Part shown: in pieces, positions 16,144 through 17,310 of the stretch
Layout: each line of letters begins with the position of its first letter
Position numbering within the stretch: position 1 is the first letter of the stretch
NCBI GenBank assembly: GCA_964552375.1
Contig: CAZKFX010000001.1
Location: 3,929 to 67,928 of the forward strand
DNA from: an uncultured Candidatus Saccharibacteria bacterium
GTDB lineage: Bacteria; Patescibacteriota; Minisyncoccia; Minisyncoccales; CAZJYT01
Reading direction: 5' to 3'
DNA: 64,000 bases
The notes under the pieces: generated by a model
Told to the model about the DNA's origin: nothing
Seen by the model: only the letters and a program-made list of their open reading frames with translations
The model's database searches: none
Program-made: the position numbers and the translations under genes

Positions 16144-17310
16144 ATGGATTTAGAAAAAATAAAAAAAATAAATGTAAAAATAATTGGAATTGGTGATGGA
16201 GGAGCGAATATAGTCTGTGAAGTTTCTCAAAAAATTAAAAAAACAAATTTTTTAATAGTAAACGGTAAAGGACAATTTTTAAAGAAAATTCCAAAAAATG
16301 TTGAAAGGTTTGAGTTAAAAGGAAAAATTCCTCTTGAAAGTGATTTTGAAGGAGTTGAAAAATTAGTTAGAGAGAATGAAGAGAAAATTAAAAAGGTTTT
16401 GAAAAATGTTGATTTAGCAATTTTTATTATTTGTTTAGGAGGAGCAACAGGTTCTGGGGCAGGTTTTGTTTTTTCTGAAATTTCTCAAAGACTGGGAAAC
16501 TTAAATTATGGAATTTTTACTCTTCCTTTTAAATTTGAAGGAAAGAAAAAAAGAGAGATTGCAAGTTTTGCCTTTCAAAAAATAAAAGAGAATTTTCATT
16601 CTTTTTCAATAATTGAGAATGATAAAATTTTTCAGTTAGTTGACAAAAGTGTCTCTTTGAAAAATGCCTTTTCTGAATTAAATAAAATTTTAGCTAAAAA
16701 TATTCAGGGTTTGATTGAATTGATTTTCCAACCTTGTCTTATCAATATTGATTTTGCAGATATAAAAAGTGTCTTGACGGGAAGGGGTAAATTAGTTTTT
16801 TTAAACAGTGCCAAGGCTAAAGATAAAAACAGAGCAAAAGAAGCACTTGAGAAAGTTTTAAAATGCCCTCTTTATTCTTATAATATTGACAAAGCAAAAG
16901 AAGTTTTATTTAATATTGCTGGTGGTAAAGACTTGACATTAACAGAGGTAAGAGAAATTTCAGAAAAAATTTCTCAAATTTCAAAGAGCAACAAAATTAT
17001 TTTTGGAATTTGTGAAAAAAAAGATCTCCAAAATCAAATTGAACTTACTCTTTTAGCTTCAGGTTGCCAGGCTTTAAATTTTGATTTTTTGAACCTTTCT
17101 CAAAAAGAAGAACCTTTGCCAATTTTGACTAAAAATCAAAAAAATCAAAAAAAGCAAAAAAAAGAAAATTCAAATGAAATTAGGAAAAATGCCCTTCAGG
17201 TAAAAGAAGAGATAAAAAAAATGGAAAAAGAAATGTTAGAAAAAGAAAAATTTTGGGAAATTCCCGCTATTTTTAGACAAAAAAAGAAAAAAAATGCAAA
17301 AAATATATAA
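16144..17310 (+). CDS. ftsZ: FtsZ paralogue with intact T7 loop and conserved C-terminal peptide
   Basis: GIGDGGAN; GGATGSGAG tubulin signature; T7 loop NIDFAD; C-terminal tail ends EIPAIFRQKKKK (IPAFLR-like FtsA/ZipA-binding peptide). Confidence 0.75.
   Translation: MDLEKIKKINVKIIGIGDGGANIVCEVSQKIKKTNFLIVNGKGQFLKKIPKNVERFELKGKIPLESDFEGVEKLVRENEEKIKKVLKNVDLAIFIICLGGATGSGAGFVFSEISQRLGNLNYGIFTLPFKFEGKKKREIASFAFQKIKENFHSFSIIENDKIFQLVDKSVSLKNAFSELNKILAKNIQGLIELIFQPCLINIDFADIKSVLTGRGKLVFLNSAKAKDKNRAKEALEKVLKCPLYSYNIDKAKEVLFNIAGGKDLTLTEVREISEKISQISKSNKIIFGICEKKDLQNQIELTLLASGCQALNFDFLNLSQKEEPLPILTKNQKNQKKQKKENSNEIRKNALQVKEEIKKMEKEMLEKEKFWEIPAIFRQKKKKNAKNI

What the first reader, a model, noticed from the sequence alone, without database searches (positions are those of the whole stretch)
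16144..17310. Second FtsZ, far from ftsA, that carries the canonical catalytic T7 loop and the IPAFLR-type C-terminal peptide
This copy is separated from the ftsA-ftsZ locus by about 18 kb and sits between pyk and nnrD. It has the tubulin signature GGATGSGAG, an intact NIDFAD T7 synergy loop, and a long K/Q-rich linker ending EIPAIFRQKKKK. That tail is the motif FtsZ uses to dock FtsA/ZipA. The ftsA-adjacent copy lacks exactly these features (see finding at 35214). The division of labour between the two FtsZs appears inverted relative to gene context.
Basis: seen in the sequence. Interest (0 to 1): 0.75.

Follow-up and report, generated by a model that had tools for sequence, protein, structure and literature searches.

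The report
Two FtsZ proteins with split roles
This tiny-genome (Patescibacteria) bacterium has two copies of the cell-division protein FtsZ, and each has lost the parts the other keeps, so they probably have to work as a pair, somewhat like the two halves of tubulin.

Summary
Window 16144-17310 (+) encodes a 388-aa FtsZ homologue, here called ZL. It lies between pyk and nnrD and has GGATGSGAG, an intact NIDFAD T7 loop and a C-terminal FWEIPAIFRQKKKK peptide. The ftsA-adjacent copy at 35214-36152, here called ZS (312 aa), ends at the globular core and has T7 = NVDFGN.

- ZL is the divergent paralogue. It is about 33% identical to B. subtilis FtsZ and fails the TIGR00065 cut-off. ZS is about 47% identical and passes.
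T2 NTD is now NGK, the T3 GLGTGM loop is deleted, and the Arg equivalent to S. aureus R143 is Lys.
- Of about 200 relatives of ZL examined, only ZL lacks T2 and T3.

The pair itself is a clade feature of Paceibacteria (Parcubacteria).
- Long copies keep T7 and the tail. They were never within 10 kb of ftsA in 80 species and usually sit next to nnrD.
- Short copies are tail-less and sit next to ftsA. They keep the GTP pocket, but only 55 of 120 keep an intact NxDFAD T7 motif.

Only one interface is catalytically complete: the ZL T7 face on the ZS nucleotide face. The best reading is a co-polymer or heterodimer with tubulin-like asymmetry, tethered to FtsA by ZL's tail. Co-assembly is inferred, not shown.

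The parts
16144..17310 (+). ftsZ-L (ZL), 388 aa: the divergent long FtsZ paralogue, with T7 loop and C-terminal peptide
   Evidence: ORF. Pfam Tubulin + FtsZ_C. PDB FtsZ E 7e-52. FtsZ fold. TIGR00065 207.6 bits, below the 295.2 cut-off.
16186..16209 (+). T1 loop GIGDGGAN (aa 15-22); Asp replaces the third Gly, as in its closest relatives
16261..16275 (+). Degenerate T2: NGKGQ where the family has NTDxQ. Lys42 replaces the Mg2+-water-holding Asp (S. aureus D46).
   Evidence: Alignments. Role of N44/D46 from PMC8936486. Unique among about 200 family members.
16324..16347 (+). T3 remnant KIPLESDF. The GLGTGM gamma-phosphate loop (including the S. aureus G72 equivalent) is deleted, leaving a 4-residue gap with diverged flanks.
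   Evidence: No alternative reading frame restores it. Model confidence dips here.
16438..16464 (+). T4 tubulin signature GGATGSGAG (family consensus GGGTGSGAAP)
16525..16551 (+). T5 PFKFEGKKK. Lys136 sits at the position of S. aureus R143 / E. coli R142.
   Evidence: In SaFtsZ, R143K allows assembly but lowers GTPase activity (PMC8936486).
16744..16761 (+). T7 synergy loop NIDFAD (N201, D203, D206), intact
   Evidence: About invariant in the L family: 118/120 database members and 78/81 GTDB ORFs.
17068..17178 (+). K/Q/N-rich disordered linker (about aa 309-345), shorter than the family norm
   Evidence: pLDDT below 50 at residues 319-348. Family median length is 461 aa against 388 here.
17179..17250 (+). 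Conserved charged helix IRKNALQVKEEIKKMEKEMLEKEK, immediately upstream of the tail peptide; a family hallmark
   Evidence: Invariant or near-invariant R347 K348 N349 A350 Q352 E356 E361 E368. Predicted helix 350-372. C-termini listed.
17251..17292 (+). C-terminal peptide FWEIPAIFRQKKKK, of the (D/E)-x-P-A-F-L-R type
   Evidence: Present in 79/81 GTDB L-type ORFs.
33987..35207 (+). ftsA, the presumed docking partner of the ZL tail
   Evidence: Pfam FtsA + SHS2_FTSA. TIGR01174 323 bits against a 175.85 cut-off.
35214..36152 (+). ftsZ-S (ZS), 312 aa: tail-less FtsZ with a canonical core, directly after ftsA
   Evidence: TIGR00065 329.8 bits, which passes.
35322..35411 (+). ZS T2 (NTDAQ, 35322-35336) and T3 (GLGTGM, 35394-35411), both intact
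35595..35621 (+). ZS T5 PFSFEGELR, with the Arg (R136) retained
   Evidence: R is present in 120/120 S-family members.
35814..35831 (+). ZS T7 NVDFGN. Asn206 replaces the second catalytic Asp (E. coli D212 / S. aureus D213 / alpha-tubulin E254 position).
14934..16139 (+). pyk, 4 nt upstream of ZL
17294..18169 (+). nnrD (Carb_kinase), overlapping the ZL 3' end; a conserved neighbour of L-type ftsZ
   Evidence: nnrD lies downstream of L-type ftsZ in about 52 of 80 GTDB species loci.

Best explanation
ZL and ZS are the two members of a subfunctionalised FtsZ pair that is typical of Paceibacteria/Parcubacteria (Patescibacteria).

ZS is the ftsA-linked copy with a canonical core. It keeps a complete, hydrolysable GTP site (T1-T6 and the Arg of T5). 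It has lost the linker and tail, and in this lineage it has also lost the second catalytic Asp of T7.

ZL is the divergent, nnrD-linked copy. It keeps an invariant T7 loop and an extended FtsA-type C-terminal peptide. In this genome it has additionally lost its own gamma-phosphate/Mg2+ machinery: the T2 Asp is Lys, T3 is deleted, and the Arg is Lys.

The most likely mechanism is co-assembly. The T7 face of ZL docks on the GTP face of ZS, which is the only longitudinal interface with every catalytic residue present. ZL thereby activates GTP hydrolysis in ZS, and its tail tethers the assembly to FtsA at the membrane. The opposite interface (ZS T7 face on ZL nucleotide face) is catalytically dead on both sides, like the intradimer N-site of alpha/beta-tubulin.

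Shown: the genes, the motif states, the family-wide conservation patterns, gene contexts, and co-occurrence in four genomes. Inferred: co-polymerisation, which interfaces actually form, FtsA binding by the tail, and whether ZL still binds nucleotide.
For: (1) Motif partition in the window, taken from the alignments.
- ZL has N40/K42, no T3 and K136, with T7 N201/D203/D206 intact and a tail present.
- ZS has N37/D39, GLGTGM and R136, with T7 N201/D203/N206 and no tail.

(2) Structural and biochemical basis from SaFtsZ filaments (PMC8936486).
- N44/D46 (T2), G72 (T3) and R143 of the lower subunit, together with N208/D210/D213 of the upper T7 loop, build the active site.
- D46A and D213N each suppress assembly, and R143K lowers GTPase activity.
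- E. coli D212A retains 7% of GTPase activity (PMC8142252).
- By these single-mutant analogies, neither ZL-ZL nor ZS-ZS interfaces are complete. Only ZL-on-ZS is.

(3) Family level, L family: 120 database homologues plus 81 ORFs from 80 GTDB species.
- T7 is NxDFAD in 118/120 and 78/81.
- The tail peptide is present in 79/81.
- Lys occupies the R143 position in 109/120 and 62/79.

(4) Family level, S family: 120 homologues of 299-332 aa, all tail-less.
- N44, D46, Q48 and R143 equivalents are invariant or nearly so.
- T7 is intact (NxDFAD) in only 55/120. The second Asp is replaced by N, S or G in 53.
- Entropy is lowest on T7/H8 in L (0.55) and on T2/T3 in S (0.57 and 0.32).

(5) Control: 74 tailed FtsZs from unrelated metagenome contigs.
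- The second Asp is present in 72/72 scorable sequences and the Arg in 70/70.
- Both departures are therefore clade-specific, and both fall on the same interface (S T7 face on L nucleotide face).

(6) Co-occurrence of L and S in one genome.
- The window contig.
- GCA_002774615.1.
- Parcubacteria CG2_30_36_18, and the PIX88xxx MAG.
- In the three pairs with sequences in hand, S T7 ends in N, S and N.

(7) ZL is under purifying selection where the model needs it.
- Its last roughly 20 residues (EKEMLEKEKFWEIPAIFRQK) are identical to those of P0002, at 54% overall identity.
- Its T7 is identical to the family consensus.
- Its fold is confidently predicted.
Against: - No experiment or complex prediction was possible, so co-assembly is inference from sequence.
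- Most L-family members keep complete T2 and T3, and 55/120 S members keep an intact T7. In many relatives each protein could therefore homopolymerise, and the pair need not be obligate across the clade.
- The T2/T3 loss in ZL is seen in a single lineage (1 of about 200). Its persistence over evolutionary time cannot be judged, and it could reflect recent relaxation of selection.
- Single-residue analogies from S. aureus and E. coli may not transfer to proteins only 33-47% identical to B. subtilis FtsZ.
- Genome-level co-occurrence was shown for only four genomes.
- The two genes are not co-transcribed; they lie 18 kb apart.
Confidence: 0.55

Rival explanations
1. ZL is the real, self-sufficient Z-ring FtsZ. 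It homopolymerises with GTP and is tethered by its tail. The ftsA-adjacent ZS is a non-essential modulator, like the truncated FtsZ1 of Agrobacterium.
For: At family level, L proteins have everything a working FtsZ needs: T1-T7, linker and tail. Truncated FtsZ paralogues that co-polymerise but are dispensable are known (10.1101/412759 abstract; 10.1101/2025.09.29.679267).
Against: In this genome ZL lacks the T2 Asp, the T3 loop and the Arg. D46A alone abolishes SaFtsZ assembly. ZS is the more conserved of the two (S-S 62-70% against L-L 51-63% identity) and keeps an invariant GTP pocket, which does not fit a dispensable accessory. ZS holds the ancestral ftsA-linked position.
Confidence: 0.15
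2. ZS together with FtsA forms the ring, tethered through some non-tail contact. ZL is a substoichiometric end-capper or regulator: its T7 face binds the exposed GTP face of the terminal ZS subunit, and its crippled nucleotide face blocks further growth. ZL would thus set filament length or turnover while anchoring filament ends to FtsA.
For: One face of ZL is intact (T7) and the other is damaged (T2, T3, Arg). That is the design of engineered one-faced FtsZ capping mutants (own knowledge: Redick et al. 2005; Du et al. 2018). ZL retains the tail.
Against: This applies only to this genome, because other L proteins keep both faces. ZS homopolymer interfaces would still carry the D213N-equivalent change, which suppresses SaFtsZ assembly. 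No tail-independent FtsA-FtsZ contact is known.
Confidence: 0.18
3. ZL is a decaying paralogue under relaxed selection, on its way to becoming a pseudogene, with no specific function in this organism.
For: It is the fastest-evolving member of its family: 51-52% core identity to L proteins of two other paired genomes, where those two share 62.5%. It uniquely lost T2 and T3, has a shortened linker, and scores 207.6 bits against TIGR00065 where typical L proteins score about 283.
Against: The ORF is intact and tightly packed between pyk and nnrD. T1, T4, T5 and T7 are kept, and the 20-residue tail region is identical to that of a 54%-identical relative. The fold is confidently predicted. The losses are confined to one functional site rather than scattered.
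Confidence: 0.07
4. ZL works outside cell division, for example as a separate cytoskeletal or segregation filament, as FtsZm and TubZ-like proteins do. The resemblance of its tail to the FtsA-binding peptide would then be coincidental or serve another partner.
For: It was never within 10 kb of ftsA or dcw genes in 80 species, and its conserved neighbour is a metabolite-repair gene. The family falls just below the NCBI FtsZ equivalog cut-off.
Against: The tail matches the canonical (D/E)-x-P-A-F-L-R peptide and is almost universally conserved in the family. If ZL were not part of the ring, the tail-less ZS would have no known tether. One relative has ftsEX and divIC a few kb upstream.
Confidence: 0.05

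Closest known systems
Divergent second FtsZ of some CPR/Patescibacteria genomes (Santana-Molina et al. 2023, PMC9871819)
   Same: This is the same gene family. That paper notes that some CPR genomes carry a divergent FtsZ copy on a long, unstable branch, possibly derived from the canonical CPR FtsZ. ZL belongs to it: 34-38% identity to reference FtsZs against 50-54% for the S family.
   Different: The paper treats it phylogenetically only. It does not describe that the divergent copy holds the tail and the invariant T7 loop. It does not describe that the 'canonical' ftsA-linked copy is tail-less with an eroded T7. It does not describe the Arg-to-Lys change or the T2/T3 loss seen here.
Chloroplast FtsZ2/FtsZ1 (FtsZA/FtsZB) pair
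   Same: Two FtsZ paralogues co-assemble in one ring. Only one (FtsZ2) keeps the conserved C-terminal peptide that tethers the ring to membrane proteins, and the other lacks it (PMC8142252).
   Different: Both plant proteins keep full GTP-binding loops and a catalytic T7 Asp (the FtsZ1 D275A mutant had to be engineered). Here each paralogue has lost catalytic residues on one face. The origin is independent.
alpha/beta-tubulin (and BtubA/B) heterodimer
   Same: The logic of asymmetric catalysis is the same. One subunit carries the catalytic acidic residue in T7 (alpha E254; ZL D206). The other carries a non-catalytic residue at that position (beta K254; ZS N206). Only every second interface hydrolyses GTP (own knowledge for tubulin; positions aligned).
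   Different: ZL and ZS are clearly FtsZs by sequence and fold, not tubulins. Alpha-tubulin still binds structural GTP with intact T2 and T3, whereas ZL has lost them. Heterodimer formation here is untested.
Truncated FtsZ paralogues of Alphaproteobacteria (Agrobacterium FtsZ1, Sinorhizobium FtsZ2) and FtsZm of magnetotactic bacteria
   Same: A bacterial genome carries a full-length FtsZ plus a copy that lacks the linker and tail.
   Different: In those cases the full-length canonical copy sits in the dcw cluster next to ftsA, and the truncated copy lies elsewhere and is dispensable. Here the arrangement is reversed. The truncated copy is also the better conserved of the two.
Archaeal FtsZ1/FtsZ2
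   Same: An ancient pair of FtsZ paralogues with distinct roles in ring assembly and constriction. One of them is preferentially coupled to the membrane anchor (abstracts).
   Different: The anchor is SepF, not FtsA. Both paralogues are regarded as active GTPases. The duplication is unrelated.

Membership tests
FtsZ (bacterial cell-division tubulin homologue; TIGR00065 equivalog) | Tubulin/FtsZ GTPase domain followed by the FtsZ C-terminal domain, with an FtsZ fold | tested here: met
   ZL matches PF00091 (E 4.5e-18) and PF12327 (E 1.5e-16). It aligns full-length to solved FtsZs. Foldseek gives TM about 0.9 to FtsZ structures. ZS also meets this.
FtsZ (bacterial cell-division tubulin homologue; TIGR00065 equivalog) | Score at or above the curated equivalog cut-off (295.2 bits) | tested here: not met
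   ZL scores 207.6 bits. Typical L-family members score 282.8 and 284. ZS scores 329.8 and passes.
FtsZ (bacterial cell-division tubulin homologue; TIGR00065 equivalog) | Complete nucleotide-face loops: T1 GGGGxN, T2 NTD, T3 GLGAG-type, T4 GGGTG(T/S)G, and T5 PFxFEG..R | tested here: not met
   In ZL, T1, T4 and the start of T5 are present. T2 is NGK, T3 is deleted, and the T5 Arg is Lys. ZS has all of them.
FtsZ (bacterial cell-division tubulin homologue; TIGR00065 equivalog) | T7 synergy loop N-x-D-x-x-D | tested here: met
   ZL has NIDFAD. ZS has NVDFGN and does not meet it.
FtsZ (bacterial cell-division tubulin homologue; TIGR00065 equivalog) | Disordered linker plus a conserved C-terminal peptide of the D-I-P-x-F-L-R type | tested here: met
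   ZL ends ...EKFWEIPAIFRQKKKK. The peptide is present in 79/81 GTDB family members. ZS lacks both linker and peptide.
FtsZ (bacterial cell-division tubulin homologue; TIGR00065 equivalog) | Gene linked to ftsA / the dcw cluster | tested here: not met
   ZL is 16.7 kb from ftsA. L-type genes had no ftsA within 10 kb in 80 of 80 species loci. ZS lies directly after ftsA in the window and in three other genomes.
FtsZ (bacterial cell-division tubulin homologue; TIGR00065 equivalog) | GTP-dependent polymerisation, GTPase activity, and a mid-cell ring | not testable with these tools
   This requires biochemistry and imaging.
FtsZ-like outliers (FtsZl1/FtsZl2, TubZ, CetZ) | Best match is to those families, with no FtsZ_C domain and no FtsZ-type tail | tested here: not met
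The 49 best of ZL's 50 PDB sequence matches are bona fide FtsZs, and one weak CetZ-type hit (3zid) has E 7e-8. The FtsZ_C domain and a tail peptide are present.
Tubulin-like asymmetric heterodimer (alpha/beta-tubulin, BtubA/B logic) | One partner has a catalytic acidic T7 residue and the other a non-catalytic residue at the same position | tested here: met
   ZL has D206 and ZS has N206 at the E. coli D212 position. Across the S family this position is N, S or G in 53 of 120; across the L family it is D in 119 of 120.
Tubulin-like asymmetric heterodimer (alpha/beta-tubulin, BtubA/B logic) | The nucleotide site facing the non-catalytic T7 is non-hydrolysing or structural | tested here: inconclusive
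   The ZL pocket lacks the Mg2+/gamma-phosphate residues (K42, no T3, K136). The L family has Lys at the Arg position in 109/120. Whether ZL binds nucleotide at all is unknown.
Tubulin-like asymmetric heterodimer (alpha/beta-tubulin, BtubA/B logic) | Physical, obligate heterodimer or co-polymer | not testable with these tools
   No complex prediction or experiment was available. A search for natural L-S fusion proteins found none.
Truncated accessory FtsZ paralogue (Agrobacterium FtsZ1 / FtsZm type) | The truncated copy lies outside dcw, and the full-length canonical copy lies next to ftsA | tested here: not met
   The arrangement is reversed here, in contrast.

The most novel reading that the evidence does not exclude
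In this Patescibacteria lineage FtsZ has evolved into an obligate two-subunit building block that is functionally analogous to alpha/beta-tubulin.

ZS would act as the beta-like subunit, with an exchangeable, hydrolysable GTP site and a dead T7 loop. ZL would act as the alpha-like subunit, with a catalytic T7 loop, a nucleotide site that no longer senses gamma-phosphate, and the membrane-tether tail.

The window's ZL would be the most advanced stage of this process. Its relatives would represent intermediate stages: S T7 eroded and the L Arg changed to Lys, but L T2 and T3 still present. That would be an independent bacterial route to heterodimeric, catalytically asymmetric tubulin-family filaments.
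Probability: 0.3. Interest if true: 0.85.

Novelty: new variant of a known kind. Interest (0 to 1): 0.62.

Why it matters
FtsZ is the textbook example of a single-subunit, self-activating cytomotive filament, and tubulin's heterodimer is usually treated as a eukaryote-lineage innovation. This clade, with 575 or more matching stretches confirmed in the species-representative genome collection, shows something different. The activating T7 loop plus the membrane tether sit in one paralogue, and the hydrolysable GTP site sits in the other.

The clade also offers natural intermediates. In this window's genome the partition has gone furthest. If the two proteins co-assemble, they make the question of how catalytic asymmetry and heterodimerisation arise in the tubulin superfamily directly testable with two small recombinant proteins.

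There is a practical point too. Annotation pipelines call the tail-less copy 'FtsZ' and often label the tail-bearing partner 'hypothetical'. Reconstructions of cell division in CPR bacteria that count one FtsZ are therefore incomplete.

Tried and rejected
- **Frameshift or assembly artefact for the missing T2/T3.** The other two reading frames across aa 25-100 are full of stops and contain no NTD or GLGTGM. The identical protein is assembled in independent ENA and Logan assemblies. Rejected.
- **Misalignment of T7, T2 or T3.** HMMER against PDB and four separate MAFFT runs with different sequence sets agree. Rejected.
- **Natural L-S fusion proteins as 'Rosetta stone' evidence for a complex.** The two-domain hits in the representative search are a GC-rich double FtsZ, archaeal-type tandem FtsZs, and intein-containing FtsZs. 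None is a CPR L-S fusion. No support gained.
- **Looking for the S copy or ftsA within 10 kb of L in 80 GTDB species.** None was found. Genome-scale co-occurrence therefore could not be measured this way. Pairing rests on the window plus three genomes identified by accession or organism name and by contig look-ups.
- **Pairing the closest S relative (P0122, GCA_964550325.1) with a close L relative (P0004).** They come from different sources, so no pair was obtained.
- **Metagenome scan with the S-family alignment.** The patterns chosen were generic, so only 7 of 80 loci were S-type. The remaining 74 tailed FtsZs were reused as a control set.
- **Other division genes in the window (SepF, ZapA, FtsEX, FtsQ/W).** None was found among the annotated ORFs.
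- **A formal phylogeny.** Not built. Only identity and score comparisons were made, together with the T3 variant GLGTGM that L and S share and that occurs in 3 of the 74 control sequences. These are offered as hints that L arose within CPR.
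Full report
**What is there.**

Window 16144-17310 (+) is an intact 388-codon ORF, here called ZL. It starts 4 nt after pyruvate kinase (14934-16139). Its last 17 nt overlap the NAD(P)H-hydrate dehydratase gene nnrD (17294-18169), which is followed by rplN-rplX-rplE.

ZL matches Pfam Tubulin (E 4.5e-18) and FtsZ_C (E 1.5e-16). It aligns over residues 10-342 to B. subtilis FtsZ (E 7e-52). Its AlphaFold2 model (mean pLDDT 84) superposes on solved FtsZs with target-normalised TM about 0.9.

- GGATGSGAG at aa 99-107
- NIDFAD at aa 201-206
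- a low-complexity linker
- the C-terminus ...[21 protein letters not shown]

The second copy, here called ZS (35214-36152, 312 aa), follows ftsA (33987-35207) directly. It ends four residues after the last core strand, and its T7 loop reads NVDFGN.

ZL is the less canonical of the two proteins, not the more canonical one.
- ZS scores 271 bits against solved FtsZs and 329.8 bits against TIGR00065 (cut-off 295.2).
- ZL scores 180 bits and 207.6 bits on the same tests.
- By BLAST, ZL is 30-33% identical to the B. subtilis, M. tuberculosis and E. coli cores, and ZS is 42-47%.

Every alignment also shows that ZL lacks three elements of its own nucleotide face.
- T2 reads N40-G-K42, where FtsZs have N-T-D.
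- The T3 loop GLGTGM is deleted: a 4-residue gap with diverged flanks, aa 61-68.
- The Arg that follows PFxFEG is Lys136.

No other reading frame restores these motifs. The same protein was assembled independently by ENA and Logan.

**What these residues do.**

High-resolution S. aureus FtsZ filament structures define the active site (PMC8936486).
- N44 and D46 of T2 hold the waters that coordinate Mg2+.
- G72 of T3, together with D210 and D213 of the T7 loop of the next subunit, holds the catalytic water.
- R143 bridges to the gamma-phosphate.
- D46A and D213N each suppress assembly, and R143K permits assembly but lowers GTPase activity.
- E. coli D212A retains 7% of GTPase activity (PMC8142252).

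Mapped onto the window:
- ZL carries D46K, no T3 (and so no G72 equivalent) and R143K, but has an intact N208/D210/D213 triad.
- ZS carries intact N44/D46/G72/R143 equivalents, but has D213N.

The only longitudinal interface with a full set of catalytic residues is therefore ZL's T7 face on ZS's nucleotide face. The reverse interface is defective on both sides.

**The pair is a clade feature.**

*L family (homologues of ZL).*
- The 120 best database hits come from Nealsonbacteria, Paceibacteria, Wildermuthbacteria and related Patescibacteria. Their median length is 461 aa.
- NxDFAD is present in 118/120.
- A strikingly conserved C-terminus is present...EKEMLEKEKFWETPAFLRKK, preceded by IRKNALQ.KKE.
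- In the 80 best loci (81 ORFs), T7 is NxDFAD in 78 and the tail peptide is present in 79.
- No locus has ftsA or an S-type ftsZ within 10 kb.
- nnrD lies just downstream in about 52 of the 80 loci.
- The R143 position is Lys in 109/120 database members and 62/79 GTDB ORFs.

*S family (homologues of ZS).*
- All 120 best hits are 299-332 aa and tail-less.
- T1-T6 are near-invariant: N44, Q48 and R143 equivalents in 120/120, and D46 in 119/120.
- The T7 loop is intact in only 55/120. The second Asp is N in 24, S in 22 and G in 7.
- The gene string F420-ligase-like / small ORF / ybeY / ftsA / ftsZ-S is conserved in three further genomes.

*Conservation patterns are complementary.* Column entropy is lowest on T7/H8 in L (0.55). 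In S it is lowest on T2/T3 (0.57 and 0.32), and T7/H8 is relaxed (0.89).

*Control.* In 74 tailed FtsZs from unrelated metagenome contigs, the second T7 Asp is present in 72/72 scorable sequences and the Arg in 70/70. The two family-wide departures are therefore real, and both fall on the same interface: the S T7 face on the L nucleotide face.

**Co-occurrence.**

Four genomes carry both copies:
- the window's own contig;
- Nealsonbacteria GCA_002774615.1, with L on PEYD01000061 and S plus ftsA on PEYD01000025;
- Parcubacteria CG2_30_36_18 (OIP75195 and OIP76315);
- the MAG holding PIX88603 and PIX88052.

In the three pairs with sequences in hand, the S T7 loop ends in N, S and N, and the L T7 loop is intact. 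Wider co-occurrence could not be measured with the available scans.

**What is special about this window.**

Of about 200 L-type proteins examined, only ZL has lost T2 and T3. One other, P0113, has a garbled T3.
- ZL's closest relatives, at 54-56% identity, still have NTD and GLGTGM.
- ZL is also the fastest-evolving member. It shares 51-52% core identity with the L proteins of the two other paired genomes, where those two share 62.5%. The corresponding S-S values are 62-64% and 69.6%.
- The decay is selective. T1, T4, most of T5 and T7 are retained. The last roughly 20 residues are identical to those of P0002.

This pattern argues for loss of one function, gamma-phosphate handling in ZL's own pocket, under continued selection on T7 and the tail. 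It does not look like general pseudogenisation.

**Mechanism proposed.**

Shown: the motif states, the conservation patterns, the gene contexts and the co-occurrence.

Inferred:
- ZL and ZS co-assemble.
- ZL's T7 loop activates hydrolysis of GTP bound to ZS.
- ZL's extended C-terminal peptide docks on FtsA and tethers the assembly.
- The ZS-on-ZL interface, if it forms, is non-catalytic.

This is the logic of alpha/beta-tubulin: alpha E254 is catalytic, beta K254 is not, and the N-site GTP is not hydrolysed (own knowledge). I give this about 0.55.

The main rivals are:
- a one-faced capper/anchor role for ZL (0.18);
- L as the self-sufficient ring protein with S as a modulator (0.15). This is plausible for relatives but hard to square with ZL's crippled pocket;
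- decay of ZL (0.07);
- a non-division role (0.05).

**Comparison with known systems.**

- Santana-Molina et al. 2023 (PMC9871819) already note a divergent second FtsZ in some CPR genomes. They discuss only its unstable phylogenetic position.
- Five literature searches found nothing on the partition of tail, T7 and nucleotide-face residues between the two copies.
- Known bacterial duplications place the truncated copy outside dcw and the full-length copy next to ftsA (10.1101/2025.09.29.679267).
- Chloroplast FtsZ2/FtsZ1 share the 'only one has the tail' feature, but both are catalytically complete.

I therefore rate this a new variant of a known kind (FtsZ paralogue pairs). The window's ZL is its most extreme example.

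**Limits.**

- All functional statements rest on sequence analogy to proteins that are only 33-47% identical (to B. subtilis FtsZ).
- ZL's T2/T3 loss is known from one lineage.
- No complex model or phylogeny was computed.
- Pairing is documented in four genomes only.

Noticed in passing
window 17179-17292 (ZL aa 346-383); L family generally: The conserved C-terminal element of L-type FtsZs is much longer than a normal FtsZ tail peptide. It is a roughly 25-residue charged helix (IRKNALQ.KKE.E..EKEMLEKEK) fused to FWETPAFLRKK, with about ten invariant or near-invariant positions, and it is predicted helical. It may bind more than FtsA.
   Followed up: partly
P0266 (492 aa) and P0398 (733 aa), from the representative search: These FtsZ proteins carry an intein inserted inside the tubulin signature motif (GGG^C...HN^TG(S/T)G). 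P0266 is a tail-less S-like protein with T7 NIDFAS.
   Followed up: no
L020 (CAYXSK010000019.1) 2707-4242 and 4584-5591: Two L-type ftsZ genes lie in tandem in one Patescibacteria MAG. The first has an altered T7 (RVDFAD), and the second is cut by the contig end.
   Followed up: no
window 32561-33979, with L005/L006 and L089: A conserved gene string precedes ftsA-ftsZS in three further genomes: an F420-ligase-like (CofE-like) gene, an 88-92-aa ORF with no Pfam match (33267-33542 in the window), and ybeY. The small ORF could be an unrecognised division factor.
   Followed up: partly
window about 6100-8500 (seen via L001 1-2284): yidC, yidD and rnpA on the minus strand, followed by dnaA on the plus strand, mark the chromosomal origin region. 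Both ftsZ copies lie within 30 kb of it.
   Followed up: no
window 14934-19415: pyk, ftsZ-L, nnrD, rplN, rplX and rplE abut or overlap (4-nt gap, 17-nt overlap, 4-nt overlap), so they look like one transcription unit. rplN-rplX-rplE are detached from the usual S10-spc ribosomal cluster.
   Followed up: no
window about 23190-23750, 47592-48503 (-), 48642-49172 (+): Three small proteins have T4SS_pilin-like domains (one match just below and one above the Pfam cut-off; the third comes from precomputed hits). One lies next to a 622-aa PKD/Peptidase_C1 protein (45727-47595).
   Followed up: no
window 36748-37851: An FBPase_3 (archaeal-type bifunctional fructose-1,6-bisphosphate aldolase/phosphatase) gene lies just downstream of ftsZ-S and inorganic pyrophosphatase.
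   Followed up: no
P0257, P0258, P0261, P0279, from the representative search: Single polypeptides of 731-840 aa contain two complete FtsZ domains in tandem. They are not CPR-like: one is GC-rich with a plant/alga-like tail and two look archaeal. They could be natural FtsZ-FtsZ fusions or gene-call mergers.
   Followed up: no
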